From assembly GCA_965202805.1 (NCBI GenBank), contig OZ241869.1, positions 1,472,001 to 1,536,000 of the forward strand: 64,000 bases of DNA, in the 5' to 3' direction. The DNA is from Longimicrobiales bacterium (GTDB taxonomy: Bacteria > Gemmatimonadota > Gemmatimonadetes > Longimicrobiales > Gaopeijiaceae). Within the stretch, counting starts at the first letter, position 1; each line of letters starts with the position of its first letter. A program made the translations under genes and the position numbers. Below are positions 13,618-31,476 of the stretch, in pieces. A model generated the notes under the pieces. That model did no database searches. It saw only the letters and a list, made by a program, of their open reading frames with translations, and was not told the origin of the DNA.

Positions 13618-14724
13618 ATGTCTACCCAGGTAACGGCCGGGCCTCCCGGCCCGGTTCTCGTGACGGGCGGGAACGGCTACATCGCGTCCTGGCTGGTCAG
13701 GCGACTGCTCGAACGCGGTTTCGACGTCCACGCGACGGTGCGCGACACCGGTGATCCCACCAGGACCGACCACCTGACCGCGGTCGCGAGGGGTCATCCC
13801 GCAACGCTGACCCTGTTTGACGCGGACCTCCTGGAGGCCGGCGGGTTCGATCGCGCGATGGCGGGGTGCCATATCGTCTTCCACACGGCTTCGCCGCTGA
13901 TCGTGCGGGACGTGGTGGATGCCGAGGGCGACCTTGTGCAGCCGGCTGTCCGCGGCACCCGCCACGTCCTGGAAGCCGCGAACCGGACTCCCTCCGTGCG
14001 GCGCGTGGTGCTTACCTCAAGTATCGTGGCCGTCTACGGCGACGCCGCGGATCTCGAGGGAATCGAGGCGGACCGATTCGACGAGAGCCATTGGAACTCG
14101 ACCAGCAATGCGCACCACCAGCCGTATTCCTACTCCAAGACCCTGGCGGAGCGGCTGGCGTGGGAGATGGCGGACGGACAGCACCGGTGGGATCTGGTCG
14201 CCGTGAACCCCGGCCTCGTTCTCGGACCGGGCCTTGGCCGGCACACGAGCGCCGAGGGTGTCCTGATCATGCGCGATCTCGGGAACGGCTATTATCGTTT
14301 CGGCGCCCCCGAGCTCGAATTCGCCATCGTGGATGTCCGCGATGTCGCGGAGGGTCACCTGCGCGCCGGGTTGATCCCGGAGGCCCGAGGCCGGCACATT
14401 CTGGTCGGTGAGACGCTGGGCCTGATCGAAGTCGCTTCGATTCTGCGGAATCACTTCGGCGACGGCTATCCGTTTCCGCGTCAAACCGTGTCGAAGGTGG
14501 TTGCCCTCATGCTCGCGCCCCGGCGGCGAATCCCGCAGGCCGTGGCGCGGCGCAACATCGGCTATCCACTCAGGTTCGACAACCGATACGCGAGAGACGC
14601 TCTCGGAATCACCTTCCGCCCCGCGGCGGAGTCGATTGTCGACCACTTCCGGCAACTACTGGACGACGGCCTGGTTTCGCGCGCAAGGCGAGACTCCCGA
14701 GACGCGCGGCGCCGTTTGCGTTAG
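13618..14724 (+). CDS. Extended SDR, NAD-dependent epimerase/dihydroflavonol-reductase-like
   Basis: VLVTGGNGYIA, FHTASP, LTSS, YSYSK (YxxxK), VDVRDVA. Confidence 0.9.
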   Translation: MSTQVTAGPPGPVLVTGGNGYIASWLVRRLLERGFDVHATVRDTGDPTRTDHLTAVARGHPATLTLFDADLLEAGGFDRAMAGCHIVFHTASPLIVRDVVDAEGDLVQPAVRGTRHVLEAANRTPSVRRVVLTSSIVAVYGDAADLEGIEADRFDESHWNSTSNAHHQPYSYSKTLAERLAWEMADGQHRWDLVAVNPGLVLGPGLGRHTSAEGVLIMRDLGNGYYRFGAPELEFAIVDVRDVAEGHLRAGLIPEARGRHILVGETLGLIEVASILRNHFGDGYPFPRQTVSKVVALMLAPRRRIPQAVARRNIGYPLRFDNRYARDALGITFRPAAESIVDHFRQLLDDGLVSRARRDSRDARRRLR

Positions 14725-16296: not shown

Positions 16297-16512
16297 GGCG
16301 TGCCTCCCGGGCGTGGTGTTATGAGCCTGTCAACGGGGGTCAAGGTAGGATGAGGGGAGGGGGACGGCAAACGCGACGGCGGGTGGGATCGGGCTGCACT
16401 TCTGACCGGGAATCAGTGCGCAGTCTCTCGGTCCGGGTGGGACATCGTCAGGAGGCCGTACGCCTCCGCGGAGGGTGGCGGGTCCCCAGAGGTTGGACGA
16501 GCTGGCTCGTGT

Positions 16513-16542
16513 TACCATATGCCATATACCATATGAAGCAGC
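16513..16542. repeat. Left island-boundary repeat, (CCATATR)x3
   Basis: TACCATATGCCATAT at 16513-16527 is identical to 31454-31468. Confidence 0.75.
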
Positions 16543-16656
16543 TGGCGTTCGGCGGTACACCGGGGCCAACGCGCTCACGTCATGGCAAGCGCGGGCCGAA
16601 GTAAGGCACCGGACGCCTGGAAGGATCAGGAGCTGTCTGGTCGAAGCTGTCTCCGA

Positions 16657-19419
16657 CTACGATCGCTCCACGTTGACGTGGCCGCCCAAGCCCATCTCTT
16701 CGAGAATCTGCCGAAGCTCCGCTTCCATTTCGCGCGCGCGTTCCGAGTCGACGGTCACCGACAGCTCGATGCGCGCTCTGAGGTCGCTTCCAGACCTCAT
16801 CTTCGGCAACACCTTGATCCCGATCCGATTCCATGTCTCGGGCGGCACGGTTCCGACCAGCCGGAGTGTCGCCTCTCGCGCGGTCGGCTGCGTCTCCGTA
16901 GTCGGGTCAGTCTCCGACGTCAGAACGAGTGGCGGCCCAACAGGCGGCTCTGGCCGATCGGGCTCGGGGGCCGGGGACCGGAGCTCCTTGGCCTTGGCCC
17001 TGGTGAGCAGAAACATGCCGGCCTCGAAGACGACATCGTCCGGCGCAACCACCTCGTCGTGCCACACCCGATGGTACTCGCCACCGCTGCCGCTACCGGA
17101 GGCCAAGCCGAAGGTTCCATTCCCCACAAACTCCACGATCTTCCCGCGAAGCACGGCGTCTGGATCCACGAGGCGGGTAAGCGAGCCGTCGAGAAAGCTC
17201 TGGCGAAGCCCGGTCAGCGGCCAGGCGCCAGCTTCCTTCAGAGCAGGCGGCCAATGCCGCTCGATGTACCCGGCGCCCACGGACTCATTGAGGATGGCCT
17301 CCGACTTCAAAGCGCCAACGATCCGGCCACACAGGCTTTCGCTCGCACTGGCGTGACCGGCGCCAAGATCGATTACCCTCAGTCCCGTCCTGGACTTTGC
17401 ATCGCTGAATGCCACGAAGCGATAGCCTGCCCATACCTCGTCCCTCGCTTCTTCCTCGGCGCTCCTCACCTTCCTCCGGATATCGGCCCGTTCGGCGTGA
17501 TCGAACTCCGTTCCCAGAACCCCCTCTCTCACCTCGCGCTCGACCCGCTGCCAAGCGAGCCACAGTTCCACGCGTTCATGCAGTTCGCGGCCCGGTTTTT
17601 TCACGCACCATACCAGCGAACCCGGATACAACCGGGGAGACCTACCTCTTTCCTGTGTCCAGCCCGCGATATGCTCCGGTGCCTGACCATCGGCTCCCCA
17701 TTCCGTATCTGGATTCGCGATGACAAGCTTGAGGTGTGGCGAGTCCTGAATCTCCGTACTCTCCTCGGGGAACGAGACGACCCGCAGACTAGCACCCCGC
17801 GCGAACTCGTCTCGGACCAGCGTGCGGATGGCCGGATTGACCTCCTTCTCCCTGTCCAGTGACGCGCGGCGGTCGCTTACAACCTTCCTGAGCGTGGCCT
17901 GATGGTGGATCTTGAAACCGTCCGTCCCCACCTTGTGGATGAAGAAGCCCGATCCCTCTAGCGCCGCAGCGGCGTTGTCTATGGTCGTTGTCTCGACGTC
18001 CGGCTCGCCCAGCGCGAACCTCAACTCGGGCAAGTGAGCCACCTTGTCGACTTGTCCGCCGGACGATTCGAAGAGGATGGCTGCGCCAACACGGCGATGG
18101 ATGTCGCGGAGCGGACCCTTGGTATCCGCGTCCAATGCTCTGGCATGCGCCTCGCTTCCCGCGATATCCGCGATGATGGCAGCGTCGAGCCTCGATTCTC
18201 CCAACTGACCAAGGATGGTGCTTCGGAACCCTGAATCGTGGAGGGGCGCCGAACCCAGCGTGATCAACTGTTCCGTTCTCGCTTCCCTGAAGTGAGTTCG
18301 CGACGCCCAAGAAACCCATTGAGCCAGCATGGCCAAGGCTCCCCGGGTTTGCTGGAATTGCGGAAGCGCTCGCCATTTCCGCTGAAACACCGAAAGGGTT
18401 GCGGGATGGAACGGATAGCAGGCCTGGAACCGACTTCGGAGAGCATCCCTCGCTCTGGCCTCGGTTGTCGCCGTATCCACGGCCGTCCATTGGGGGGGAA
18501 GGCGGTTGCTCCTCTCGAAGCACCAGTCCGCATAGCTCCTGGCGATCCGGTTGCGGATTCTCGGGCTTCCCAGATCATCGAACAGCCTTCGGCGCACGAC
18601 CTCCCCGATCTCCGCCTCGTCATTGGCGATCAGATCACGCGCCACTCGACGCACAACCTTGGTGATGCGCTCCTGCCACTGCTGATCCCAGTCGGTCATT
18701 TCGACTTGGCTGCGGGGCAGACTGATGACCGCCGCCGCTTGCGTCCTACCCGTAACAGCAACGGTGAGGTTCTGGATGAAGGCGTGGAAGCCGTCTGCCA
18801 TGCCTCGGTGCCTGTTGACGAAGTTCAGGACTTCGTCGAACAACAACAGCACGGGCGCATCCGCGAGTGCGAATACCCTTCCGATGGCCTCCGTGCCCGG
18901 GGGAGTCGTGCTTGCGGCAGATCCGAGCGCCGCAACCCCCTGCTCTCCCGCCAGCTGACGGGCCATGTCGATCCACAAGGTCTCACGGCCTTCAGCCGGA
19001 TCCCATGCGTTGCCGACGAACACCGCAACCCGCGCTGCGGGAACTTGCCCGACACCCGTCTCGCGAAGGAGTGCCGGCACTCCTGGGAACCGCGCCGCGC
19101 CCAGTCCCGCGCTCGCCAGATGATACAACCCTGTCAGCGTATGGGTCTTGCCTCCCCCGAACTGGGTGATGAGGGTCAGCACCGGAGCGGTGTTCTCGCT
19201 CCGCCCCGAAAGGCGTCGTAGCACCATTCCGGAGTGCTCCTTCAACGCCCTCGTGAAGCAGGTTCGGGAGAAAAACTGACCGGGTTCCCGGTAGTCTTCC
19301 GGCGCGGTCCCGGCGACGACCTGCTCCAGCGCGATGGCGAACTCGTCGGGGCTGAAGGACCGCCCCTCGCGGACTTCCTTCCGGAGGGTGGCGACTTTGT
19401 ACCAGGGGTTACGGGTCAT
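16657..19419 (-). CDS. DUF499-family AAA+ ATPase
   Basis: PWYKVATLRKEV...EFAIAL, FFSRTCFT, TQFGGGKTH (Walker A), LLFDE (Walker B), YPFHP, FQQTRGAL. Confidence 0.88.
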   Translation of the reverse strand: MTRNPWYKVATLRKEVREGRSFSPDEFAIALEQVVAGTAPEDYREPGQFFSRTCFTRALKEHSGMVLRRLSGRSENTAPVLTLITQFGGGKTHTLTGLYHLASAGLGAARFPGVPALLRETGVGQVPAARVAVFVGNAWDPAEGRETLWIDMARQLAGEQGVAALGSAASTTPPGTEAIGRVFALADAPVLLLFDEVLNFVNRHRGMADGFHAFIQNLTVAVTGRTQAAAVISLPRSQVEMTDWDQQWQERITKVVRRVARDLIANDEAEIGEVVRRRLFDDLGSPRIRNRIARSYADWCFERSNRLPPQWTAVDTATTEARARDALRSRFQACYPFHPATLSVFQRKWRALPQFQQTRGALAMLAQWVSWASRTHFREARTEQLITLGSAPLHDSGFRSTILGQLGESRLDAAIIADIAGSEAHARALDADTKGPLRDIHRRVGAAILFESSGGQVDKVAHLPELRFALGEPDVETTTIDNAAAALEGSGFFIHKVGTDGFKIHHQATLRKVVSDRRASLDREKEVNPAIRTLVRDEFARGASLRVVSFPEESTEIQDSPHLKLVIANPDTEWGADGQAPEHIAGWTQERGRSPRLYPGSLVWCVKKPGRELHERVELWLAWQRVEREVREGVLGTEFDHAERADIRRKVRSAEEEARDEVWAGYRFVAFSDAKSRTGLRVIDLGAGHASASESLCGRIVGALKSEAILNESVGAGYIERHWPPALKEAGAWPLTGLRQSFLDGSLTRLVDPDAVLRGKIVEFVGNGTFGLASGSGSGGEYHRVWHDEVVAPDDVVFEAGMFLLTRAKAKELRSPAPEPDRPEPPVGPPLVLTSETDPTTETQPTAREATLRLVGTVPPETWNRIGIKVLPKMRSGSDLRARIELSVTVDSERAREMEAELRQILEEMGLGGHVNVERS

Positions 19420-19455
19420 GGCGAATTCCCATCCTCCCACGTTGACTCACATTGC

Positions 19456-20742
19456 TCATTCAAGTGTCAGCTTGTTGAAATAGTGATCCAGGTCATTCAG
19501 ATTGGCACACAGTTGGACATCGGACGTGAGCAAGAGCTTCAGCACGGTGTTTTTCGCAAGCATCCGAATCTCGTCTCGCTCTCCTTTCGTCACCTCGTAG
19601 TGTCCGTCATGGACGATCTTAGAACGAATACGGTACAACTCCTTCGTTCGCTTGGCTATCCTTGCACGTTCCTCAACATTCCTTCCGAGCACCCTTGCTA
19701 CCCGTTGCGACAAACGGAAACTAAGTTCCTGTTTTTGAATCGGTAGCAAGACACACTCCAGAGAGATGGCGAACTGCAGAAACGATTCTTCCAACGTGGC
19801 CGCCACGCTGGCTCGGCCTCCCCAGCGGACTGAGTTTAGTAATATCTTTTCTGTCTTGTTGGGGTGTTTCTGGCATAACATATTCTCCACATGTTCCACC
19901 GCCTTCGCGATGGGCTCCGCACCTTCTCGGAGTTTGGTTAGGGACACGTGACCGAGCGGCCTTACTCGCGGCGGATCGTCGCCTTGTATGGATCCATCGG
20001 GTGCCACGGCCAAACGTAGAACAGGATGGCTCGCGGCAGCGTCGGGTGGGGGAATGAACAGCCAAGCCAAACAATACGGGATAAGATCTGAAAAAAAGTT
20101 CACGCATTCTATCGCAGCCCTTACTTGTCGCTCTCCAAGTACGACGGCAGCCCTCCCGTCTCGGGCCTCCGCAGTAACGATTGCGATCGGACGATCTAGT
20201 AGCGACTCAGACACTATGTCTTCAAAGTATGCGATGCTGGCTGACTCATCGGTGCCAAGCTCAACGTTCCGATGAGAAGTCAGAGCCGAAATCCGCTCTT
20301 CGTCACACTTCAAAAAACGGACCGGTCCAAAACGCGCTGGCAGAGATTCCGCGTCGAGCCCCCCAACAGGCACCCAGCACTTGTACTCTTTGGGTGAACT
20401 CTTCAGAACAGTCCTAAGCGTTGTGAGCGCATTGTTGATCCGAACATTCGGATCGCGGCTCCGTTGTTTTGGTATATCGACGGATTCGAAGACGGCATCC
20501 CTCAGAGCTGAATCGACGGCATATTCGGACAGGTCTTCTTGGCGAGCGAATTTGGTCAGAATCTCTTGAACGACCCGTCGATACTCTCTACTCAATTCAG
20601 CATCCAAGAACAGCATTCCCTCGCCATCCTTGGACCAAAAGGCGCCGGTGGGTGGGGGAAGGGTTCCAGGAACGGACCGAGCTGCCACCCCGACCCGCTC
20701 AAGAAAACTGCGCACGAATCGGAGACCCTTGGAGTGGCTCAC
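19456..20742 (-). CDS. ApeA-like HEPN-domain protein (putative RNase effector)
   Basis: C-terminal FAISLECVL...ELSFRLSQRVA...LYRIRSKIVHDG (RxxxxH). GTG start overlaps the upstream stop. Confidence 0.8.
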   Translation of the reverse strand: MSHSKGLRFVRSFLERVGVAARSVPGTLPPPTGAFWSKDGEGMLFLDAELSREYRRVVQEILTKFARQEDLSEYAVDSALRDAVFESVDIPKQRSRDPNVRINNALTTLRTVLKSSPKEYKCWVPVGGLDAESLPARFGPVRFLKCDEERISALTSHRNVELGTDESASIAYFEDIVSESLLDRPIAIVTAEARDGRAAVVLGERQVRAAIECVNFFSDLIPYCLAWLFIPPPDAAASHPVLRLAVAPDGSIQGDDPPRVRPLGHVSLTKLREGAEPIAKAVEHVENMLCQKHPNKTEKILLNSVRWGGRASVAATLEESFLQFAISLECVLLPIQKQELSFRLSQRVARVLGRNVEERARIAKRTKELYRIRSKIVHDGHYEVTKGERDEIRMLAKNTVLKLLLTSDVQLCANLNDLDHYFNKLTLE

Positions 20743-22856
20743 GCTGCCCTCCCCCAACGCCGCTGGACGTACCTGACCGTATCCTTCACCGACAATGGCC
20801 GAGTCGCATTTCCGGTCCGAAGGTAGAATGTGGCGATGTTGCGCTCCTCCACGTAGACGGGTTCATCGCTGGACTCAACGGTAATCTGGCAGATGTCCGC
20901 CCCGTCGATCTCGTGGAATGTTATCGTCAGATAGGTCGACGATACGGGTCCTAGGTCGCGGGCGATGATCTGCTGCAGGTGGAGTTCGAAACCGTCCCTG
21001 TCGCTCTTCCTCAGGGTGGCGTAGTCGTCATCGATCCCGACCGCCGCACCCGAATCGTCTACACCGATGAGGAGCGTTCCGCCCCTGGCGTTCAGGAATC
21101 CGGCCAAGGTCTTGGCTACGACCTTTTCGAGGCCCTTGTTCACTCCCTCTAGCCGCCGGTCCCAGCGGAGACTCGACTTGAACTCAACGGCTTCGCTTTC
21201 TCCGGCAACCATCATCTGCCGAACGCTATGCTCATCGGTGCGTCCCTCTTCGCCTCTGGGGATCCAGCCAGCGATGAACTCGTTGATCGCACGGGCCAAC
21301 AGGGCACGGCGTGCGGCGAGAAAGTCGAGGTAGTTGTCGGGATCCCAGAGTTCGCGGTCCAGTGGGATGGACTGCGCCCGCAGGACACCGGGCTGGTTCT
21401 CGTTGACTTCGGGAAGGTACTCGGCGGGCGCCGAAGAACGGACCTCCCTCGGTGCCTTCTGCGTTAGGAACACCCGGTTGGCCAGCTCGTTGTTGGTCTT
21501 CCGGTCTCGATTGGAGTCGAAACCGGCCTTCTTTAGCACGGGAAGCGAGAAGACGTGGTGGCGGTCCAACACGTTGCTTCGCCCCATCGCTCTGTCGTAA
21601 ATGCGAATCCCCGTGAACCAATCTCGGGAACCTCTTGCCTGTGCCACAATCTGGGCCAGGGGTGCAGCAGTGGAACGCACGCCCGCTTCGACCAAGTCCG
21701 ACGTTTCAAGCGTCACTCGCCCGCGCTCGCGGAGAATCGCGGCCTCCAACTCCGGCGTGGGATCCGGGTCACTGCCCGTCACTAGGGCGACATCCTGTTG
21801 GAGCTTGGTCTCGGTGGCGCCGGAGTAGCGGGCCCACAGACCCGCCAGATAGATCCAGCGAATGAACCGCCGCTTGAGACTCTCGTTCGGAAAGCTCCCA
21901 CCCTGGCGCGCAAGAAAAATCGTGGCGGGCATGAGCATGTAGGTGGTGGGAAGGTCCTTGGCGTTGCCAACGAACGCTTCGTGTCGCAGCACGGCCACCA
22001 AGTGCTCGAACGCGGGCTGCATATCCCTCCATCCGGCTTGCAGCACCTCTGCGGGGGTCCGCAAGAAGGAACCCTCGAGCCGGATCGAGTCCGTCGCAAC
22101 ACCGGCCAGACACCTCAGGAAAAAAGCGAAGTCCATGGCAAAGCCCCGATCCGCCATCTTCGCCTGAAACTCCCGCATCTCCGCCCTGGCTTCCGGCCAG
22201 ATGCTGCAAACGTGCGCCAGCGCGAGGTCCGCAGCCTTCAGCGGCGTCCCCTTGCTGTTGATCCGATTAAAGATCTCGACGACTTCCGACACCCCGAACT
22301 CATCACCCGACACTTGGTCGATGGTGTATCGGTAGTCCCGGATCTGGTCGAGGCGACTGAGGTTGGCGAGATTCTGCTGAAACACGTCCCGCTCTTCCTC
22401 GTCGAGTTTCGGCATCCTCCTGAGCAGACCGTGCAGGGTCTCGCTCAGGAAATTGTGGACTCCGATCCATGCCGGGTTTTTCTGCATCCGGGTTTTCTGC
22501 CAGAAACGGAACTCCTCCGTTTGCACGTTGAAGTACAAGTCGAAGAACAGGCTCTCGCCTTCGTAGAACCGGGGAGGCCTTCCCCTGAACAACACGTAGA
22601 GCGTCGTCAAGCGCTGCTGTCCGTCCAGGAGGAGCAAGGACTTTCCGTCATCCGACGGGTCTGCGCCACGAACCACCGAAGGCTTGTAGGTGCTCCAGAT
22701 CAGCAGATGTCCCGTGGGATGTCCGCGGTAGAGAGACTGCATCAATCCCCGCACCTGTTTGCGGGTCCAGACGTATCCCCGCTGGAATTCGGGGAGCAGG
22801 ATTTCGTTCCGGCTGATCTGGTTCAGCAAGTACTCGATCGATCTCACCTCATGCAT
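20739..22856 (-). CDS. GmrSD-like (DUF262 + HNH-like) protein fused to a C-terminal Schlafen/AlbA_2 domain
   Basis: LPEFQRGYVW, LLDGQQRLTT, FNRINSKG (DUF262); HHVF...NELAN (His-Me finger-like); ESEAVEFKSS...AGFLNARGGTLLIGVDD (AlbA_2). Confidence 0.87.
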   Translation of the reverse strand: MHEVRSIEYLLNQISRNEILLPEFQRGYVWTRKQVRGLMQSLYRGHPTGHLLIWSTYKPSVVRGADPSDDGKSLLLLDGQQRLTTLYVLFRGRPPRFYEGESLFFDLYFNVQTEEFRFWQKTRMQKNPAWIGVHNFLSETLHGLLRRMPKLDEEERDVFQQNLANLSRLDQIRDYRYTIDQVSGDEFGVSEVVEIFNRINSKGTPLKAADLALAHVCSIWPEARAEMREFQAKMADRGFAMDFAFFLRCLAGVATDSIRLEGSFLRTPAEVLQAGWRDMQPAFEHLVAVLRHEAFVGNAKDLPTTYMLMPATIFLARQGGSFPNESLKRRFIRWIYLAGLWARYSGATETKLQQDVALVTGSDPDPTPELEAAILRERGRVTLETSDLVEAGVRSTAAPLAQIVAQARGSRDWFTGIRIYDRAMGRSNVLDRHHVFSLPVLKKAGFDSNRDRKTNNELANRVFLTQKAPREVRSSAPAEYLPEVNENQPGVLRAQSIPLDRELWDPDNYLDFLAARRALLARAINEFIAGWIPRGEEGRTDEHSVRQMMVAGESEAVEFKSSLRWDRRLEGVNKGLEKVVAKTLAGFLNARGGTLLIGVDDSGAAVGIDDDYATLRKSDRDGFELHLQQIIARDLGPVSSTYLTITFHEIDGADICQITVESSDEPVYVEERNIATFYLRTGNATRPLSVKDTVRYVQRRWGRAA

Positions 22857-22960
22857 ATGCCATCCTCGGTACTGCGGCGCTCGATGGGCTCAGTAGTCTC
22901 GACGGACGGTAACATATGTGCCGACGCAAGGCTCGCCCATGCCGCAGCATCGGACCAGCG

Positions 22961-23563
22961 CTACCCGGAAGACTCCACAAGCCGCTGGATGCACCGGATC
23001 GCCCGCTTCAGGCTGTCCGACCGCTCGGAAGCGATCGGCGGACGCCACTTGGTGCTGGCGAACTCGGCCAACCGGGACGTGTAGGCGGGTCCAACGGCTC
23101 GGCCGCTGCCGCTACGCGGCACCATATCTTCGCGGATGTCTCGGCGACGTGAGCGGCGTGCGAGGTTGGCGACGAATTCCTTTGGGTTGGTCACACTCTC
23201 GGGGTCTTGAGGGATCCGGCTTTTCGCCACACTCAGAAAGCGCGCTGCCGCCTCGCGATCCGCCAATAACCAGGTCTCCACTTCGCGCAGGGCGATGCGA
23301 AAGCAAAGATGCGGAGCAGGATTCGGCAGCCATTCCGCGCGGAGGACCGCCGCGCAATCGGCGTCGTTATCGAGGTCCACAAGGATAACCCAGGGCGCGT
23401 GGCGGGCGGCCTGATTGAACCCTCCGATTCTCTGCTTGAGATAGGGCTTTCCACGGCGTCCATAGACGGTGCCGGTATCGCCGCCGGCATGCCTGATCAG
23501 CCTGCGCACGACGGCTTCGTCCACGACTCCTTCGACTGCCGCACTGAAGACGGATAGGGGCAA
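22961..23563 (-). CDS. DUF4276-like/TOPRIM-like partner of the ABC ATPase
   Basis: VEGVVDE (TOPRIM Glu), LVDLD (DxD), REVETWLLAD, SDSLKR. TTG start 4 nt after the ATPase stop. Confidence 0.75.
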   Translation of the reverse strand: MPLSVFSAAVEGVVDEAVVRRLIRHAGGDTGTVYGRRGKPYLKQRIGGFNQAARHAPWVILVDLDNDADCAAVLRAEWLPNPAPHLCFRIALREVETWLLADREAAARFLSVAKSRIPQDPESVTNPKEFVANLARRSRRRDIREDMVPRSGSGRAVGPAYTSRLAEFASTKWRPPIASERSDSLKRAIRCIQRLVESSG

Positions 23564-23567
23564 TGGC

Positions 23568-24707
23568 CTACGCGTCCGCAAAAAGTGCGAGTTGGCCGGG
23601 ATTGGTCGGACGAGTCCTAGGGATGACCACGTCGGCCAGCGAAAGGCCAGCATCAAGGAGCTGCTTCACGTCCGAGAGCGAGGTCGTGGGGAAAACCTTG
23701 GCGCCTTCCTTCTGCGGCACGAACAACAGGGTCTCGTCAAGGCCGATCCCGCTGTCCGCCAGGAGATCCGGCGAATGGGTACTCAAGAAGACCTGCCTCC
23801 TGGTGTGTCGTTGCACCCGTGCCAGCATCTGAGGTAACACGCGCACGATCTCTGGATGCAGCGAGAGCTCCGGCTCTTCCAGCAGCAGCGGTCCCTTACC
23901 ATCCATCGTCGCCCACAACACTCCCATCAGGCGAAGGGTGCCGTCCGACAGCTGCCCTTCGCTTTGCCAGGCACCGTGCGGTCGCCAGTGCTGGTATCTG
24001 GCGCGCAGGTGAGGAACACCCCGGACATCCCGCGTCAACTCGATCTCCTCCAGTTGAGGGACGGCGACACGGAGAGCCGTCTGGATCTTGCGCATGCGCG
24101 CGTTCCGCGTTCGCTCGTTCGTTCGGGCGACCTGTTCCAGGAAGTCTCCGCCGTAGGGGTCGTTGGATCTTCCTACCGAGCGATCCGGCTCGCGGACGAG
24201 CTGAGGCACGATGTGGAGGTAGCGGATGGAAGCGAAGAACGTGGACAGGGCGCGGAATTCCAGGTTCACGTTCACCTGTTCAAGATGGGTCTGCGTCAGG
24301 CGAGCTGCGTCGTCACGGTCATCCTGGTCGGGGCGTTCAAGAATCGTCTGGCCATCTCGAATGACTCGCTCGCTCCGCACCAACGGCCTGCGCTGATTGT
24401 CCTGGTTGAAGGCCAGTTGGTAGTCCCAGGAGTGGCCTTCGCCGTTCTCGAGTTCCACATCGATCTCGATGTCGGAGTATCGGCGGGCCGCGAGACAGCG
24501 AATCGTGCTCACGCCGTCCCGCCGACGGACGGCTTCGCCGAAGCCGCCCCCCACCGAAGCAAGATCCCGAAGGAAGCGAAGCGCATCCAGAAGATTGGAC
24601 TTCCCGGAGGCGTTGGGACCCACCAGAAACATCCGATCCTGGAGGTCGACCTCAACGCTCTCGAAGTTCTTCCAGTTCTTCAGGCGGAGCTTGCGGAATC
24701 GAAGCAT
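23568..24707 (-). CDS. ABC-type (AAA_21/OLD-like) ATPase
   Basis: LRLKNWKNF, GPNASGKS (Walker A), LSDGT (signature), LLLEEPE (Walker B), STHS (H-loop). Confidence 0.9.
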   Translation of the reverse strand: MLRFRKLRLKNWKNFESVEVDLQDRMFLVGPNASGKSNLLDALRFLRDLASVGGGFGEAVRRRDGVSTIRCLAARRYSDIEIDVELENGEGHSWDYQLAFNQDNQRRPLVRSERVIRDGQTILERPDQDDRDDAARLTQTHLEQVNVNLEFRALSTFFASIRYLHIVPQLVREPDRSVGRSNDPYGGDFLEQVARTNERTRNARMRKIQTALRVAVPQLEEIELTRDVRGVPHLRARYQHWRPHGAWQSEGQLSDGTLRLMGVLWATMDGKGPLLLEEPELSLHPEIVRVLPQMLARVQRHTRRQVFLSTHSPDLLADSGIGLDETLLFVPQKEGAKVFPTTSLSDVKQLLDAGLSLADVVIPRTRPTNPGQLALFADA

Positions 24708-24747
24708 GGCAGTGGGTTCGCGAGTTGTCAGCCCTACACGTCGCAGG

Positions 24748-27699
24748 TCACCTTGGAACCGCCAGCAACATGGCGTCCAAGAGGCGTTTTTCCTGGCTAC
24801 CACGAGGATACAGGGCGGAGAGCGCGTTGGCGAGACGCAGGAACTCCGGTCCCCGATCCTGTTCCTCGCTGATCAGCCTCCGAAGGGCGTTCGTGTGGCC
24901 GCTCCGCTGGAGTAGCATGGCCGCGTGAACGCGATCAAGGGTGGTTGCGTCGGGTTCCCGGAGTTCAGCATCACTGCCGAGGATCTTGCCCTTGCGACCA
25001 CGAACGGCTCGTGGTGCCCCAGTTGGTTCCCAGTCGGGGAAGAGGGTCGCTTGAAGATCGGCGTCCTTCTCGAGCTTCCCCGCCGCGACGGAAGCACCTT
25101 CTTCACCGAAGAGTTCCTTAGCCCGCTTGGCCACGGGTAGGAGACGCACAATCCCCTTCTTTTGCTCGATTATTCGATTCGTCCATCGGTCGAGGTTGAT
25201 GCCCATCGGCTGTGCGAAGCGCCGGACAACGTCGAACGGCAGGCTGAGACCCTTGGCAACCGCCTTCGCGATGGCTTCCTCGTCCCTCCTAGCCTTGTTC
25301 TTCTCTTCGGGCTGTTCAGTGCTCTGAAGTGTCCAAAGGAAAAGCGCGGTCAGCCGCGAGTCTTCCTCAAGAGCCCCAATCTGGCCTCCAAAATCTGTCG
25401 ATCTCGCTGTCCCCAATACTCGTTGAAGCGCTGTCCGGCCAACAACCTCCCAGATCTTCTCTAGGTATTCCGGCAGCTTGACCCTTCGCCCCGCGGGTGT
25501 TTCGACAGCACGGTAGCGACTGAAGATTTCCAAGGCGGGCCCGATACACGCAAATACCAAGTCCGCACCACGGATGCCTTCGGCCTGCAAGCGCTCAATC
25601 CAGTCGGCGACACGGCCCGGCAACTCCTGCAGGACTTCGCTCCAATCCCCAATTGGAGCTTCGTTAGCACGTGGTCGACAGACTAAATGGACGCTGGTAG
25701 CGAGCGCAGCAGAATCCCGAGCACGGAGACGCGCACTCCTCTCGGTCGCGATTGGCCATGATGCAGTAATCGTCCATCCGCCTCGGATCATTCCGGCAAG
25801 CAGTGCTTCCCATCCTTCCGTGGTCTTGTGCGCAAAAACAACGCAACCTATTCCCTCGCTATTCAGCACCCGGCAGCCTTCCGCGAAGGTTTTGGACATC
25901 ATCTCTTCGAACCACTCACGGTCCTTTGGGCGACCTTGCACTTGTTTAGTCTTGTCCTGGACGATCTCGGATCGTTTCGGCGATAGAGGGTTGTCAGGAT
26001 CAAAGGGATCTCGTAGTACCGCGTGATCGGGCAGCGCTCGTTTCAGCCACACCAAGAAGAAATCCGACAGATCGGAGTATGGTATCGCATCGTAGTAGGG
26101 CGGATCCGTGAACCATACATCACTGGTCTCATCAGGCAGAGGATGTTGAATCGAATCTGCGAGCTCAGTCTGTCCCACGTGCGTTAGGTCGCGAACGCTC
26201 TTCTCAATGCAGTCAGCAACGTCTTTGAAACAGTTTTTTAGTCCACCTGCATAGGACACATCGGGATACATTTCCGGGAAATCCCAAGACATCGGTAGCG
26301 TTTGCATTCCAAACGCTCCGGCAACAGTCTCGCTCTTCCTGTGCCATTTGCTAAGCACGTTGCAATGCCGAAGGAGTTTCCCCAATGACAACGCTACCAG
26401 ACGCTGAAGTGCTTGTGTTTCCATTACTGCACTGTTTGCCAATCGCGACAAGAGCAATATAATGGCCATTTTTTGGCGGGCTGTGAACAAGTCTTGCCAT
26501 TCAAGTATCCCATATCGTTGAACACGAAAACCAAGAGTGCCGACCGGTGGCAATCGTTCGTCCGGCACGGGACAAGCGCCCTTCCTTCCGAGTCGCTCCC
26601 ATTTCTGGAGGATGTCCGCAAGCCGGTCTTGCGAGCGGCGCACAGCCTCATAGTCGGCCTCACATGGTGACCTGTAATACCGCCTCTTCGCGCCCGGTGG
26701 TACGGTCGCCACTGCCATCATCCGTGCTCCACCAATGCGACAACCCTCTTCGTCAAAGACAACATCGGTACCGCCGCGTTGGATCGCAATCTGATGTCGT
26801 ACTCGCTCACGGGACAGCACCGAGCCACAGCAAAGGCAGGTTGCTTTGGCTCCGGACACAGTCGCACCACCTACCTCGCTGGCCGAAATCGGCTTGAACA
26901 ACTCAAACGCAAGTCTCGGCTGACTTCCAGCAGCCCGGATTATCCGATGCCGAAGTGCCCGCCTGCGCTTTGGCTTTTGACACAACCAAAAGGAACGCAT
27001 CAGCGGAATTTCTGCGCCGCAAGCTGGCGCTTCACAGCGCACTGTACGCGCCCAGAGAAAGGCAAACGGAGTCGCTCCGTCGGGGTCAGCAGGAAATAGC
27101 TCAGCCAGATCTTGTTCCGCCTGCCGTCGAGTATCGTTGGCGACGCGACGAAACTCGTCAATCAACGGTCCCCCACCCCGTGGGATGTCGTCTAGGAGTG
27201 CCTTAAGTATGAGGCACGCCACAGGATTCAGATCGCTAGCAAAGGTGTCACAACCCAACCGGAGAGCTTCGAATGGAATTGATCCACCACCCGCGAATGG
27301 GTCTACCACTAAGGGAGATGCCGGGCCGTGGGCAGCACTGACCAGGGCCCGTGCCACCCGAAGGTATATGGGATGGCCAGCCATCTCCCAACTAGAAAAG
27401 ACACCAATGAACCAGAGCAATGCCTTTCGCAGTTCCATGTCGTTCGCCGGGCGACGACGAATTTCTTGCAGGATTTGCCGGGCTTGTTTCTTGAAACCGC
27501 TTGGACAATGGTCGTCGCATGGGTCTGGTAGCAGCAATGCGATTAGCAATCCCCGACAGGAAGCCAACGGCCTCCGAGCCCACCAAAGATGAAGCTTAGA
27601 CGGGTGGCCCAGAGTTGTATTCTGTCGGACAGCATGCCGGGATACTTCGGCTATCGGAAAATCTACCTCAGCAAGGCGTTTGCAACTCCTAGGAATCAT
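24748..27699 (-). CDS. DUF1156-family adenine-specific DNA methyltransferase
   Basis: LHLWWARRPLASCR (DUF1156), DPFAGGGSIP (motif I), TDPPYYD (motif IV), CxxC Zn motifs. Start MIPRSCKRL at 27699. Confidence 0.9.
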   Translation of the reverse strand: MIPRSCKRLAEVDFPIAEVSRHAVRQNTTLGHPSKLHLWWARRPLASCRGLLIALLLPDPCDDHCPSGFKKQARQILQEIRRRPANDMELRKALLWFIGVFSSWEMAGHPIYLRVARALVSAAHGPASPLVVDPFAGGGSIPFEALRLGCDTFASDLNPVACLILKALLDDIPRGGGPLIDEFRRVANDTRRQAEQDLAELFPADPDGATPFAFLWARTVRCEAPACGAEIPLMRSFWLCQKPKRRRALRHRIIRAAGSQPRLAFELFKPISASEVGGATVSGAKATCLCCGSVLSRERVRHQIAIQRGGTDVVFDEEGCRIGGARMMAVATVPPGAKRRYYRSPCEADYEAVRRSQDRLADILQKWERLGRKGACPVPDERLPPVGTLGFRVQRYGILEWQDLFTARQKMAIILLLSRLANSAVMETQALQRLVALSLGKLLRHCNVLSKWHRKSETVAGAFGMQTLPMSWDFPEMYPDVSYAGGLKNCFKDVADCIEKSVRDLTHVGQTELADSIQHPLPDETSDVWFTDPPYYDAIPYSDLSDFFLVWLKRALPDHAVLRDPFDPDNPLSPKRSEIVQDKTKQVQGRPKDREWFEEMMSKTFAEGCRVLNSEGIGCVVFAHKTTEGWEALLAGMIRGGWTITASWPIATERSARLRARDSAALATSVHLVCRPRANEAPIGDWSEVLQELPGRVADWIERLQAEGIRGADLVFACIGPALEIFSRYRAVETPAGRRVKLPEYLEKIWEVVGRTALQRVLGTARSTDFGGQIGALEEDSRLTALFLWTLQSTEQPEEKNKARRDEEAIAKAVAKGLSLPFDVVRRFAQPMGINLDRWTNRIIEQKKGIVRLLPVAKRAKELFGEEGASVAAGKLEKDADLQATLFPDWEPTGAPRAVRGRKGKILGSDAELREPDATTLDRVHAAMLLQRSGHTNALRRLISEEQDRGPEFLRLANALSALYPRGSQEKRLLDAMLLAVPR

Positions 27700-27885
27700 G
27701 CGGACTTCTGGTCCTTTTCGTAAGGTAATCCAAGGGTTCCCGAAATGCTGAAGAGTTGATGCTGGAAGTGCGTACAATAGTTGCGGATGTGGTCACGATC
27801 ATCGATCCGTGCCCTAGAGACTTGATCCCCACAACTACGGAGCAGCCAATGGACCGGCGGTCGTGGGCCAGCGACGGAGCGCCCA

Positions 27886-30800
27886 TCATGATCTATCCCT
27901 TCTTGAGATTTCGTACGATCCCTCATCTTCTCTAATCTTCATAGGTTGGATGATTGCATCAACCTCCAGCCAGTAATGTTGCACCTTCGTGACTTCACGC
28001 CAAGGACTGCGCGCAGGATCCGGCACGGGCTCCTGGAGCTGCGGTTCGCCCGCACAATTCGTAACCACATAAAGCCAGTAGCAGTCTGGACGATCCTCCG
28101 CTACTCGTCGCTCGTTGGGGGTGAGCAGTATCGTTCCCTTGGCCCCGGCCAGACCCTTGATCTCGATTAGCCGAAGTTCGCCAGAGCGGAGGTCAAGACT
28201 GGTGATGTCGTAGCCCAAGTTCTTCTCGTGAACGTCCGTGACCTGACACCCCCGCGACTCTTCGTAGTCCATGACGACGCACATGGCGGTCATCTCGGTC
28301 TCAGGATTGGGTCGCAACCGGCGGACATCCGGTGATCCGCGCTCGGGATGCGGCAGGACCAACACGCTAGCCAGCCGCTCGACCCCTTGGAGCGTTACCG
28401 CACGCTGACGGGTTAGCTCCTCCCGACGTTGATTGCGGCGCGCCATGACGTCGTCGTGTCTGGCTTCAGCCTGAGCAAGTCGTCCCTGGGAGCCCGTGAC
28501 TCCCCTTGTAACCTCGTCGGCAGCGCGACCGATTTCATCGTCGATCCGCTGCAGGACTTCGGTCAAAGACAGTTCGACATGCCTTGCGATACGGTCGGAC
28601 TCGGCCAGACGATCCTCCCGAACCTCCTTGATGAAGGGCATCAGCGCATGCTGGCTGAGCCACGAGGTCGGGTCGGGCAGAGCGGCGGCGGGCGGTAGTT
28701 CATGAGGCACAGGAGCGGGGATGAGGTTACCCAGGGCATCTGCTTCCCTCAGTGTCGGCGTCCCGTCGCATGCCAATTCGACCGTGAAGAGCCGCTCGTG
28801 GATCACCTTGCCGAGCCCATCCACGACACGAGCACGGTAGAAGTCGAGGCGAGAAGGCTCATCCTGCGCGATCGAATAGAAGCAGGCACCTGCGGAAAAG
28901 GCCTCCTGTGCCCGGTCGCGGGCATGCCGCCGGAGCGCCTCGAAGAGCGGATGTCCCGGAGTGACCCACTCAAGATGATGTTTCTCAGCGACCTTGCGAT
29001 CCGTTGAGAGACGGGGATAGCGCACGGCAAGGTCCTGGAGTTTCCAATCTGCTTCGCGCTCATATCTCCTCAGGGACAGCGGCGTCCGTCCCGGGGCAAA
29101 GGTGTGTGCGGGGCGGCGGAGCGGCTTCAGGGGCAGGCGAGCATCCCGGGCGCACTCGTTGATGAATCGCGCGATCGTCTCCGGCACCATGCGGCGTTCC
29201 TGGGCCCGCGCCTTGCGCTCGACCAGCATATCGAGGTTCAACTTCCTCGCGGCCAATCCCTCCAGTGCATTCTGGCAGATGCTGCGGAAGTGGCCCTCAT
29301 CGACATTCTTCAGGAGCCGTTCCTCAAGATCCTGGTGGCCTAGCCTGCCGGCGTAGTAGTCCCGAAGGACGCGTTCGACCTGTGCCGAAGGGAGCACTTC
29401 GCCCACCACGTTGAACACCGCGTCATCGTCCAAAGCGTCCCGGATCTCCTGAAGCTTCTGGTGCAGCCGCCCCAGCACCCGTCCTTCGATGGTGTTGGTG
29501 GCGACAAAGTTGAAGATCAGGCAGTCCTCCTGCTGTCCGTAGCGGTGAATCCGGCCCATGCGTTGCTCGAGCCGGTTCGGGTTCCAGGGGATGTCGTAGT
29601 TGAACAGGATGTGGCAGCACTGGAGGTTGATGCCTTCGCCGGCCGCCTCGGTGGCCACGAGAACCTGGATGGCGCCCTCGCGGAATTGCTGCTCCACGTA
29701 GAGCCGTGTTCCGGGTTCGTCCCGCGATCCCGGCTTCATTCCCCCGTGGATGCACCCGACTACAAAGCCCCAGGCTTCAAGCCTTTGCATCAGGTAGGAG
29801 AGGGTGTCCTTGAACTCCGTGAAGATCAGGAGACGCTGGTCGGGTCTGTCGAAGAACCCCTCCTCCTGCATGATCTGGTGGAGATGCGCGAGCTTCGCCT
29901 CGTTTCCGGAGTCCTCGACTGCCCTCGCCTCTTCCGCCAACTCTTTGAGTTCCGCGATTTCCGCCCGTACCTGCTCCGCGTTGCCGGCAAGCGTAATCGC
30001 TTCCAGCATCCGCTCCAGGCGCTCGCGCTCCACGTCTTCGTACTCCTCCAACTCCTCGAGGTCGGGCAGGTCCGGCGGTGCCGTACGGGCCAGACGTTCG
30101 GCCTGTCGCAGTCCATCATCGAGACGCTTGGCCCGGTTCTCCAGCGACCGGCGCAGGGAGTGCGTACTGGAAGCAAGCCGTCTCTGGTAGAGCGACATCA
30201 GGAAACCGACGGCGCGGGCGCGCGGATCATTGCTTCGCTCGGCCGCCCGGCGGCTTTGCCGCTTCACAAATCGCGTCACACGCGTGTAGAGGTCGAATTC
30301 CGCCCCATCGATCCTGAAGTCGGCCGTGCGGGGGATGCGCTTCGTGAAGACCGGTTGCGCGGCCCAGGTACCGTCCGATTGCCGTGTCGGGAAGTAGACC
30401 ATCGCTTCCTTTGTACGACGCAGGTAGAACGGCGCCCTCTGTCGTTCCATGGCCTCGTTGATGGAACGCACGTCGGCGTATGCATCGCGGTCCAGCAACT
30501 GAAGGAAGAGCGTGAAGTTCTTCGCATCACCCTTATGCGGCGTGGCTGTCAGCAGCAGGATGTGGTCCGCCGCGTCGCGCAGGATCTCTCCCAGCTTGTA
30601 GCGCAGGCTCTTGTGGCCTTCGTCGCGCGCCGACATTCGATGCGCCTCGTCGACGATGACGAGGTCCCAGCCTGCCTGCTGTAGTCCGGGAAGGATATCC
30701 TGGCGCTTGGCGAGATCAAGCGAAGTGATGACCTGGTTCTGCTCAAGCCACTGGTTGACGCCGAACTGGTCGCGGATGTCGCTCCCCTTCAACACGATGA

Positions 30801-31338
30801 ACTTCTCGTCGAACTTCTCCCTCAGCTCCCGCTGCCACTGGAAGGAGAGGTTGGCGGGACAGACCACGAGAACGCGTTCGATGAGGCCTCGTAGCTTGAG
30901 TTCGCGGACGAGCAGGCCCGCCATGATGGTCTTGCCGGCACCCGCGTCGTCGGCCAAGAGGAACCGCACGCTGGGAAGCTTGAGGAGGTGTTCGTAGACG
31001 GCCTCCAACTGATGCGGAAGCGGGTCGACGCGCGAGATGGACAGCCCGAAGTACGGATCGAACTCGTAGGCGATGCCGAGCGAGTAAGCCTGGAGTCCAA
31101 GGCGGAGAAGCCGGCCATCGCCATCGTAGGACAGAGCGGCGTCGGCGATGGTTAGGCTGGCTACGTCACTGGATGTGAGGGTTACCCGACGGAATCGCTC
31201 GGACCGCATGCCGACCAAGCCTACCATCCAGATGTCGGAACCGCTCGCTCGCACGGTCTCCACCTGCATCGGCTCGCTGAACAAGGGGCCGGTGACGATC
31301 TGGCCTTCCTGCAGCGTGGTTGGGTCGGATGTCGTCAT
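27886..31338 (-). CDS. SNF2-family helicase with C-terminal DUF3883 (PD-(D/E)xK) nuclease
   Basis: LADDAGAGKT, VDEAH, TATPH, EGINLQ, WNPNRLEQRMGRIHRYGQ; C-terminal GYDITS...IEIKG. Confidence 0.92.
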   Translation of the reverse strand: MTTSDPTTLQEGQIVTGPLFSEPMQVETVRASGSDIWMVGLVGMRSERFRRVTLTSSDVASLTIADAALSYDGDGRLLRLGLQAYSLGIAYEFDPYFGLSISRVDPLPHQLEAVYEHLLKLPSVRFLLADDAGAGKTIMAGLLVRELKLRGLIERVLVVCPANLSFQWQRELREKFDEKFIVLKGSDIRDQFGVNQWLEQNQVITSLDLAKRQDILPGLQQAGWDLVIVDEAHRMSARDEGHKSLRYKLGEILRDAADHILLLTATPHKGDAKNFTLFLQLLDRDAYADVRSINEAMERQRAPFYLRRTKEAMVYFPTRQSDGTWAAQPVFTKRIPRTADFRIDGAEFDLYTRVTRFVKRQSRRAAERSNDPRARAVGFLMSLYQRRLASSTHSLRRSLENRAKRLDDGLRQAERLARTAPPDLPDLEELEEYEDVERERLERMLEAITLAGNAEQVRAEIAELKELAEEARAVEDSGNEAKLAHLHQIMQEEGFFDRPDQRLLIFTEFKDTLSYLMQRLEAWGFVVGCIHGGMKPGSRDEPGTRLYVEQQFREGAIQVLVATEAAGEGINLQCCHILFNYDIPWNPNRLEQRMGRIHRYGQQEDCLIFNFVATNTIEGRVLGRLHQKLQEIRDALDDDAVFNVVGEVLPSAQVERVLRDYYAGRLGHQDLEERLLKNVDEGHFRSICQNALEGLAARKLNLDMLVERKARAQERRMVPETIARFINECARDARLPLKPLRRPAHTFAPGRTPLSLRRYEREADWKLQDLAVRYPRLSTDRKVAEKHHLEWVTPGHPLFEALRRHARDRAQEAFSAGACFYSIAQDEPSRLDFYRARVVDGLGKVIHERLFTVELACDGTPTLREADALGNLIPAPVPHELPPAAALPDPTSWLSQHALMPFIKEVREDRLAESDRIARHVELSLTEVLQRIDDEIGRAADEVTRGVTGSQGRLAQAEARHDDVMARRNQRREELTRQRAVTLQGVERLASVLVLPHPERGSPDVRRLRPNPETEMTAMCVVMDYEESRGCQVTDVHEKNLGYDITSLDLRSGELRLIEIKGLAGAKGTILLTPNERRVAEDRPDCYWLYVVTNCAGEPQLQEPVPDPARSPWREVTKVQHYWLEVDAIIQPMKIREDEGSYEISRRDRS

Positions 31339-31453: not shown

Positions 31454-31476
31454 TACCATATGCCATATGTAGCAAC
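31454..31476. repeat. Right island-boundary repeat, (CCATATG)x2
   Basis: TACCATATGCCATATGTAGCAAC; matches the left repeat. Confidence 0.75.

What the first reader, a model, noticed from the sequence alone, without database searches (positions are those of the whole stretch)
16657..31338. Layered anti-phage system: restriction-like SNF2/DUF1156/DUF499 core with three nested putative RNA-targeting guard modules
Seen: one co-oriented run, SNF2-DUF3883 -> DUF1156 MTase -> [ABC ATPase -> TOPRIM-like] -> [GmrSD-Schlafen -> HEPN] -> DUF499 ATPase. Knowledge: DUF499+DUF1156+SNF2 (with DUF3780) form the restriction-like system of Gao et al. 2020; no DUF3780 gene is recognisable here. TOPRIM (PARIS AriB), Schlafen and HEPN (PrrC/RloC/ApeA) folds all include tRNA/RNA nucleases. 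Inference: the slot between methylase and ATPase is a cargo hotspot. It holds backup abortive effectors that fire when the core is inhibited or phage DNA is modified, like PrrC inside a type I R-M locus. This is the best candidate for an undescribed composite system in the window.
Basis: partly seen in the sequence, partly recalled or inferred. Interest (0 to 1): 0.85.

Follow-up and report, generated by a model that had tools for sequence, protein, structure and literature searches.

The report
Hma defence operon carrying passenger nucleases
This is a known three-gene anti-virus cluster (Hma) with four extra genes packed into a slot already known to collect such passengers, and those passengers likely act as separate backup defences rather than as one new system.

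Summary
All seven genes are real, intact and co-oriented. The core is Hma (Type-1 BREX-related: helicase-nuclease, methylase, DUF499 ATPase), not the DUF3780 system, so no DUF3780 gene is missing. Cargo between hma genes is published (Payne 2024: 62.7% of Hma loci; Liu 2024), as is the backup-effector idea with the PrrC analogy.

The cargo is three units. (1) HEC-01, an ABC ATPase plus TOPRIM-type pair; its substrate is unknown and it gave no protection in its one published test. (2) A BrxU-like GmrSD-Schlafen fusion. (3) A standalone HEPN protein with no library model. GmrSD-Schlafen plus HEPN is not a module (together in 1 of 95 loci). The slot varies across 14 Hma-selected loci. HEC-01 and the fusion each persist intact in a genome lacking the cognate core, which argues against PrrC-type restraint.

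What remains of interest: the fusion's close clade is tied to Hma (16 of 17 loci), keeps an invariant Schlafen motif (120 of 120) and has a relaxed HNH site (21 of 120 complete). That suggests a DNase-to-tRNase effector swap, untested. New member of a known kind; interest 0.27.

The parts
27886..31338 (-). hmaA: Swi2/Snf2 helicase with C-terminal NOV_C (DUF3883) PD-(D/E)xK nuclease, 1150 aa
   Evidence: PADLOC HmaA 1.1e-172; Pfam Helicase_C, SNF2-rel, NOV_C; Walker A, DEAH, GYDI and IEIKG motifs present
24748..27699 (-). hmaB: DUF1156 N6-adenine methyltransferase, 983 aa (longest ORF starts at 27777)
   Evidence: PADLOC HmaB 1.3e-91; DPFAGGGS and DPPYY motifs; GC3 0.575, lower than its neighbours
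23568..24707 (-). HEC-01A: ABC ATPase (AAA_21), 379 aa
   Evidence: PADLOC HEC-01A 7.4e-157 against AriA 4.7e-35; Walker A, LSDG, Walker B and H-loop present
22961..23563 (-). HEC-01B: DUF4276 TOPRIM-type putative nuclease, about 200 aa (TTG start predicted)
   Evidence: PADLOC HEC-01B 1.7e-66, no AriB hit; EG..DE and DxDxD motifs; Atlas neighbours unnamed or DUF4276 at 10%
20739..22856 (-). BrxU-like GmrSD (DUF262 NTPase + HNH-type domain with relaxed site) fused to a C-terminal Schlafen RNase domain, 705 aa
   Evidence: Pfam GmrSD_N and SLFN_AlbA_2; PADLOC HEC-05 2.6e-40; BrxU 7P9K by sequence 4e-13 and by fold 5.3e-9, with Schlafen structures below; motif counts
19456..20742 (-). Standalone HEPN-domain protein, 428 aa, start overlapping the upstream stop by 4 bp; family without a library model
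   Evidence: No Pfam, PADLOC or NCBIfam hit; HEPN fold at residues 292-412; RSKIVH, R-x4-H in 124 of 126; 1906 clusters at E<=0.001; GC3 0.566
16657..19419 (-). hmaC: DUF499 ATPase without a fused N-terminal HEPN domain, 920 aa
   Evidence: PADLOC HmaC 7e-92 against DUF499 model 4.3e-20; Pfam DUF499 only; Walker motifs
31454..31468 (-). 15-bp sequence shared with the other island end, just past the hemG-like stop
   Evidence: Exactly 2 copies in the 4.02-Mb genome, same orientation; role not established
16513..16527 (-). Second copy of the 15-bp sequence, inside a short tandem heptamer run

Best explanation
This is an Hma (Type-1 BREX-related) defence operon whose methylase-ATPase slot holds three separately acquired cargo units that likely defend on their own triggers rather than being held in check by the core. 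Core, inferred from published relatives: HmaB would methylate host adenines, HmaC would scaffold scanning, and the HmaA helicase-nickase would block phage replication (nickase and T4 defence were shown for a Halomonas HmaA). HEC-01 is predicted to be a self-contained ABC-sensor/TOPRIM-nuclease pair of unknown substrate. The GmrSD-Schlafen protein is predicted to use its BrxU-like NTP-driven body to sense foreign, probably cytosine-modified, DNA and to cut tRNA with its Schlafen head, its own DNase site being relaxed. The HEPN protein is predicted to be an independent abortive RNase. Shared orientation would give co-expression and linked transfer. Shown here: gene content, motifs, folds, slot variability, linkage counts. 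Inferred: all activities, triggers and substrates.
For: Best PADLOC hits are HmaA/B/C, HEC-01A/B and HEC-05. Embedding in Hma, HEC-01 and GmrSD cargo are published. In 14 loci selected by Hma genes the B-C slot is empty in 5, holds a DUF5615 PIN-type cassette in 5, HEC-01 + GmrSD-Schlafen in 2, another ABC+DUF4276 pair in 1 and an unknown gene in 1; none has the HEPN gene. The fusion gene lies between A and B, between B and C, or after C in different loci. G002 (100% complete, one contig) keeps intact HEC-01A/B with a deleted core and no other same-clade HmaA or whole HmaC found. L002/G553 keeps an intact 703-aa fusion beside only a hmaA remnant. Schlafen E-x4-E-x-K and DGQQR are 120 of 120, while both HNH-type residues H434 and N469 survive in 21 of 120.
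Against: No activity was measured. HEC-01 gave no protection in its published test. The fusion's close clade sits beside hma genes in 16 of 17 loci and its distances track HmaC (Mantel r 0.81, 13 related loci), which suggests more than chance passage. In both genus relatives that lost the core at this site, the fusion gene is also broken (2 of 2). An intact ORF without a core may be silent, G001 has a second (hmaB-split) Hma locus, and G553 has a distant Hma-like locus. 17 of 26 fused relatives in the locus set keep all three HNH-type residues, and the window's protein keeps H434 and N460, so loss of DNase activity is not shown. The tested EcoSlfn7 is a different, shorter protein (589 aa; pairwise E 0.004), so its defence phenotype does not transfer directly.
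Confidence: 0.62

Rival explanations
1. The GmrSD-Schlafen fusion is a dedicated Hma partner in the manner of PrrC: it binds or monitors the Hma complex and cuts tRNA when a phage inhibits the core; HEC-01 and the HEPN gene are ordinary passengers.
For: 16 of 17 close-clade loci lie beside hma genes, against HmaA+HmaB beside 2 of 68 relatives without a detected Schlafen domain (52 of those 68 have under 2 kb on one side). Co-divergence with HmaC, r 0.81. The fusion is broken in both genus relatives that lost the core. It stays inside the operon while changing slot.
Against: An intact fusion persists without a cognate core in L002/G553. 10 of 14 Hma-selected loci lack it. Linkage and co-divergence also follow from joint transfer. 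More distant fused relatives mostly show no hma gene nearby (4 of 10 have a hit).
Confidence: 0.18
2. One reading: one integrated, undescribed composite system in which all three cargo units are RNA-targeting guards that fire when the core is inhibited.
For: One co-oriented, tightly spaced run; the same cargo order occurs in a genus relative and in a contig of another study; TOPRIM nucleases such as AriB and HEPN proteins such as ApeA do cut tRNA.
Against: The seven-gene set was found only in this genome and, broken or partial, in close kin. HEPN co-occurs with the fusion in 1 of 95 loci and its profile matches 2 of 301 genomes of the phylum. HEC-01 survives intact without the core. HEC-01B's substrate is unknown. 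The concept is published.
Confidence: 0.06
3. The slot is a genomic sink: some cargo (above all HEC-01) is selfish, toxin-antitoxin-like or aimed at plasmids and adds little anti-phage protection.
For: HEC-01 gave no protection in E. coli. It is the only unit left intact in both large decayed copies at this site, as an addictive pair would be. No relative among 17 keeps the whole island at this site. The sink idea is discussed by Payne et al..
Against: Seven of nine tested Hma-embedded candidates protected. Catalytic motifs are strongly conserved. G005 has lost HEC-01 to fragments.
Confidence: 0.14

Closest known systems
Hma system (Payne 2021, cited in PMC12839542; Liu 2024, PMC11232893) = Type-1 BREX-related system (PMC12839542)
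   Same: Helicase with C-terminal NOV_C nuclease, DUF1156 methylase, DUF499 ATPase, order A-B-C, no DUF3780, cargo between the core genes.
   Different: Four genes in one slot, one more than the three-gene limit of the Payne 2024 census; HmaC lacks the fused N-terminal HEPN found in 1370 of 2446 Type-1 BR taxa.
HEC-01 (Payne 2024, 10.1101/2024.01.29.577857)
   Same: ABC ATPase plus TOPRIM-type protein embedded in Hma; PADLOC 7.4e-157 and 1.7e-66.
   Different: No difference found; function still unshown (no protection in the published test).
BrxU / HEC-05 (GmrSD-family type IV restriction enzyme, PDB 7P9K; PMC8565348)
   Same: DUF262 with DGQQR, linker and HNH-type domain; fold match E 5.3e-9; nested in a methylation-based system.
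   Different: About 20% identity; DHIYP reads HHVFS (HHIFP across the subfamily); the last Asn of the HNH-type site is Pro; a Schlafen domain is added.
pSlfn7, DUF262-Schlafen fusions (PMC13056530)
   Same: Same Pfam composition and intact E-x4-E-x-K motif; a full-length relative (NC_017457.1, 33% identity over 99%) is listed as pSlfn7 in the paper's table.
   Different: The tested EcoSlfn7 is 589 aa and barely alignable (E 0.004); the ~705-aa form with an HNH-type middle domain is not among the two tested pSlfn7 proteins (589 and about 591 aa).
ApeA-like HEPN effectors (10.64898/2026.01.26.701840)
   Same: Multi-domain protein with a C-terminal HEPN fold and R-x4-H; nearest named Atlas clusters carry HEPN_Apea (0.85-0.89, lead only).
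   Different: No HEPN_Apea or ApeA_NTD hit in 40 proteins scanned; oligomer and ligand pocket untested.
Type-2 BR system (DUF499 + DUF3780 + DUF1156 + HKD-helicase; taken by me, from recall, as the restriction-like system of Gao 2020)
   Same: Homologous methylase and ATPase.
   Different: No DUF3780, no HKD/PLD domain; scores far below NCBIfam cut-offs (113 vs 1200, 187 vs 1000, 164 vs 1100).
PARIS (AriA-AriB) and PrrC
   Same: ABC ATPase coupled to a nuclease; nesting in a restriction-like locus.
   Different: AriB is DUF4435, here DUF4276 with no AriB hit; cargo persists without the core, unlike the restraint described for PrrC.

Membership tests
Hma / Type-1 BR | Swi2/Snf2 helicase with C-terminal PD-(D/E)xK (NOV_C) nuclease | tested here: met
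Hma / Type-1 BR | DUF1156 N6-adenine methylase with SAM-binding and DPPY motifs | tested here: met
Hma / Type-1 BR | DUF499 ATPase, three core genes on one strand, no DUF3780 | tested here: met
Hma / Type-1 BR | Anti-phage activity and host methylation | not testable with these tools
   Shown only for a Halomonas HmaA
Type-2 BR / Gao restriction-like | Standalone DUF3780 gene | tested here: not met
   All seven ORFs are assigned, no Pfam DUF3780 hit, gaps at most 186 bp
Type-2 BR / Gao restriction-like | N-terminal HKD/PLD nuclease on the helicase | tested here: not met
   NOV_C at the C-terminus instead; NF042964 164 bits against a cut-off of 1100, matching the helicase part only
HEC-01 | ABC ATPase followed by TOPRIM-type gene, both matching HEC-01 models best | tested here: met
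   motifs
PARIS | AriB (DUF4435) TOPRIM effector | tested here: not met
   13 PADLOC hits, all HEC-01; Pfam DUF4276 only; AriB = DUF4435
PARIS | tRNA cleavage on sensing Ocr | not testable with these tools
   Needs experiment
BrxU/GmrSD type IV restriction enzyme | DUF262 with DGQQR nucleotide-hydrolysis motif | tested here: met
   120 of 120
BrxU/GmrSD type IV restriction enzyme | Intact HNH site (DHIYP and downstream Asn) | tested here: inconclusive
   HHVFS with N460 kept and N469 replaced by Pro; complete in 21 of 120 close and 50 of 54 unfused relatives; residues were not mapped on BrxU by superposition
pSlfn7 (DUF262.pSlfn) | GmrSD_N + SLFN_AlbA_2 composition with E-x4-(E/D)-x-K | tested here: met
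pSlfn7 (DUF262.pSlfn) | Sequence kinship with the tested EcoSlfn7 | tested here: not met
   BLASTP E 0.004, DUF262 motifs only
HEPN RNases | HEPN helical fold with R-x4-6-H | tested here: met
ApeA | HEPN_Apea / ApeA N-terminal domain profile match | tested here: inconclusive
   0 of 40 proteins hit any Pfam family; Atlas 0.85-0.89 lead; no ApeA row in the fold search
PrrC-type guard | Effector cannot persist without the surrounding system | tested here: inconclusive
   Intact HEC-01 in G002 and G001, intact fusion in G553 without cognate core; fusion broken in 2 of 2 core-deleted genus copies; expression unknown

The most novel reading that the evidence does not exclude
A clade of BrxU-like proteins has become a standing Hma partner and swapped its output: the DNase site has decayed and the modified-DNA-sensing NTPase body now gates a Schlafen tRNase, turning type IV restriction into abortive infection. 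The neighbouring HEPN protein is the first noted member of an unmodelled, widespread anti-phage RNase family that could be switched on by DNA breakdown products.
Probability: 0.25. Interest if true: 0.6.

Novelty: new member of a known kind. Interest (0 to 1): 0.27.

Why it matters
As a whole it matters little: it is a heavily loaded example of a published hotspot. Two parts are usable leads. The long GmrSD-Schlafen form offers a clean test of whether a modified-DNA sensor can drive a tRNase, and of whether any Hma cargo depends on the core, which the Payne 2024 discussion leaves open. The HEPN family has no profile in Pfam, PADLOC or NCBIfam and is a ready candidate by guilt-by-embedding. The genus also offers natural deletion series at one chromosomal site.

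Tried and rejected
Gao-type/Type-2 BR assignment: rejected. PARIS assignment for the ABC+TOPRIM pair: rejected at family level. GmrSD-Schlafen + HEPN as a module: rejected. Direct transfer of the EcoSlfn7 phenotype: rejected. 'DHIYP to HHxFP means a dead nuclease': rejected, as unfused relatives share HHIFP. An extended hemG-end duplication across this island: not above shuffles (104 of 200 reached the score); only 15 bp match. Repeat search gave no convincing long repeat; no tRNA in the window; promoter and terminator counts were at chance. Foldseek on the HEPN model gave no match at E<=0.001 and the PDB sequence searches for HEPN and HEC-01B gave nothing; the HEPN N-terminal and middle parts have no assigned fold, and were not folded alone. 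The C-terminal extensions of 48 unfused GmrSD relatives hit no Pfam family. No RNA holder was listed, which says nothing about expression. No complex prediction was run. Look-ups of earlier scan notes by relatives and by words were blank. Literature: 10 searches; none listed a paper on the long GmrSD-Schlafen form inside Hma, but subscription papers, Gao 2020, bioRxiv supplements (Payne's cassette tables) and the supplements of PMC12839542 were not seen and may list this fusion or the HEPN family.
Full report
OBSERVATION. The seven genes exist as described, on the minus strand, without internal stops. With my start picks they are 31338-27886, 27699-24748, 24707-23568, 23563-22961, 22856-20739, 20742-19456 and 19419-16657, with gaps of 186, 40, 4, 104, -4 and 36 bp. 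The block is GC-poor (0.605 against 0.684; 3 of 273 blocks as low), and hmaB and the HEPN gene have GC3 near 0.57 against 0.74-0.77 for the other five, which points to separate origins. Contigs of two runs match with no differences in the listed pieces (one study, possibly the source; no single piece spans the stretch). A contig from another study holds hmaC, part of the HEPN gene, the fusion and HEC-01 in the same order.

THE CORE. PADLOC's best models are HmaA (1.1e-172), HmaB (1.3e-91) and HmaC (7e-92); the DUF1156, DUF499 and PLD-helicase models score far lower, and the NCBIfam anti-phage DUF499, DUF1156 and PLD models are far under cut-off. PMC12839542 (section 29 whole, section 35 part 1 of 2, and passages) defines Type-1 BR, equal to Hma, as helicase-REase + DUF1156 methylase + DUF499, and keeps DUF3780 and the HKD helicase for Type-2. 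So DUF3780 is not missing. That Type-2 equals the Gao 2020 system is my recall and inference; I did not see that paper. Catalytic motifs are present in all three core proteins. A Halomonas HmaA is a nickase that blocks T4 (PMC11232893: abstract, section 18, section 17 part 1 of 2).

THE SLOT IS A PUBLISHED HOTSPOT. Payne et al. 2024 (main text parts 1-4 of 5) found embedded genes in 931 of 1,485 Hma systems, named HEC-01 (ABC ATPase + TOPRIM) and the GmrSD-like HEC-05/06, and discuss PrrC-type backup. HEC-01 gave no protection in their test. Liu et al. report insertions in about 66.5% of hma loci, including an AAA_21 pair between hmaB and hmaC and a GmrSD gene. Rakesh et al. list TOPRIM, HEPN and Schlafen backup effectors in BR loci. 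Payne's census allowed three genes per slot; this locus has four.

MY CENSUS. Searching with HmaC found 8 of 98 and 5 of 114 genomes in two groups centred on cargo-bearing genomes. Leaving out the two centres and adding three same-clade loci from the window's genus gives 14 loci. The B-C slot is empty in 5, has a DUF5615 PIN-type cassette in 5 (Pfam run on one PIN and one DUF433 representative), HEC-01 + fusion in 2, another ABC+DUF4276 pair in 1 and an unknown gene in 1. The fusion is present somewhere in 4 of 14, the HEPN gene in 0 of 14. Other cargo seen in related loci includes SIR2-HerA, a Ppl-like protein, Schlafen-HATPase, UvrD and YhcG genes.

CARGO 1, HEC-01. Both genes match HEC-01 models best (7.4e-157, 1.7e-66), with no AriB hit. 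AriB is DUF4435 (PMC11464382, passages), whereas this protein is DUF4276-like (below cut-off). RNA targeting is therefore not shown.

CARGO 2, GmrSD-SCHLAFEN. Sequence and fold searches place the first ~530 residues with BrxU and the tail with Schlafen domains (the model is poor over much of residues 19-130). In the best 120 homologues, the window's protein included, DGQQR and E553/E558/K560 are invariant, while H434 is kept in 71, N469 in 21 and both in 21. Among 80 of 95 loci with enough coverage, H434+N460+N469 are complete in 50 of 54 unfused and 17 of 26 fused proteins; kin are not independent. The window's protein has H434 and N460 but Pro at 469. Reading N469 as an HNH metal ligand is recalled consensus, not a superposition. 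In BrxU, D474A and H475A kill cleavage while N519A still cuts in vitro (PMC8565348, passages), so a dead DNase is plausible, not shown. DUF262-Schlafen fusions are published as pSlfn7, and EcoSlfn7 protects against T7 (PMC13056530: passages and rows of supplements 1, 9, 21, 22, 23). EcoSlfn7 is 589 aa and barely aligns with this protein (E 0.004). A full-length relative on NC_017457.1 is nonetheless in the pSlfn7 table. The close clade (>=60% identity) lies beside hma genes in 16 of 17 loci, two of them remnants; the exception is a 5-kb contig. Its distances track HmaC (r 0.81; 1 of 5000 permutations; 13 related loci), and it changes slot.

CARGO 3, HEPN. No Pfam, PADLOC or NCBIfam model matches it; 39 relatives were also blank in Pfam and 14 in NCBIfam. 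The model (pLDDT 82.5) matches HEPN domains at residues 292-412 (best Z 9.8, a level the tool warns can be reached by helical bundles), and R-x4-H is kept in 124 of 126 full-length relatives aligned, out of 149 considered. The family is wide (1906 clusters at E<=0.001) but rare nearby (2 of 301 genomes of the phylum). It neighbours the fusion in 1 of 95 loci. ApeA kinship is a lead only; ApeA cuts tRNA on binding deoxydinucleotides (abstract only).

NATURAL DELETIONS. The island sits between a hemG-like gene and a molybdopterin oxidoreductase gene, both found in 19 of 19 genus genomes. In the 17 relatives where they share a contig none has the whole island, 13 carry an alginate-export-family gene there (Pfam on one copy), and 4 show clear remnants. 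G002 and G001 keep intact HEC-01A/B with the core deleted. G002 has no other same-clade HmaA or whole HmaC; G001 has a second Hma locus with a split hmaB. In both the fusion is broken, and G001's HEPN gene has a stop about 15 codons before its end, after the motif. L002/G553 keeps an intact fusion with no cognate core found. So strict restraint by the core is unlikely for HEC-01 and open for the fusion.

MECHANISM AND VERDICT. Most likely (0.62): a methylate-and-restrict Hma core with three co-expressed but self-triggered passengers. Rivals: the fusion as a PrrC-like partner (0.18), a sink with selfish cargo (0.14), one integrated guard system (0.06). All activities are inferred. Four earlier scan notes on other genomes reach a similar reading of the fusion; they are AI notes and are not counted as support. 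New member of a known kind; interest 0.27.

Noticed in passing
window 16513-16527 and 31454-31468: A 15-bp sequence flanks the island in direct orientation and occurs only twice in the genome; it lies in a short heptamer run also seen at one end of the site in L017 and L025. It could be an insertion scar or a regulator site.
   Followed up: partly
L016 (G001:C1:480300-490800): A 147-bp, 96% identical direct repeat covering the hemG 3' end brackets the decayed island, as for an element that inserts into the end of hemG; no integrase gene was seen in the window's island.
   Followed up: partly
window 16300-16657; L016-L032: 13 of 17 genus relatives carry a ~455-aa alginate-export-family gene between hemG and the molybdopterin oxidoreductase gene; the window's genome lacks it at this site.
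   Followed up: partly
L039:6017-8359 (G000:C1 about 2.68 Mb): The same genome has a second, distant GmrSD-Schlafen fusion (780 aa, 28% identity), a further Schlafen-like segment near 3.21 Mb and a distant HEPN-family paralogue near 0.38 Mb.
   Followed up: partly
L055-L122: Relatives of the GmrSD part without Schlafen carry other C-terminal extensions of 125-449 aa that hit no Pfam family (0 of 48), suggesting a swappable tail.
   Followed up: partly
L004, L008, L045, L126, L132: Short duplicated pieces of the hmaA end or hmaB start (in L132 a near-whole second hmaB) flank cargo genes, a possible trace of cargo gain by recombination between Hma loci.
   Followed up: no
L033/L034 (G001:C3): A second Hma locus has hmaB split by about 16 kb of unrelated genes, with SIR2-HerA downstream of hmaC.
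   Followed up: no
window 6185-13510 (-) and 13390-14724 (+): A 2441-aa modular type I polyketide synthase (KS-AT-DH-ER-KR-ACP) with a divergent NAD-dependent epimerase gene lies just beyond the island.
   Followed up: no
window 24748-27699: hmaB is more diverged from relatives (55-65%) than hmaA (67-79%) and has low GC3, as expected for a swapped specificity gene.
   Followed up: no
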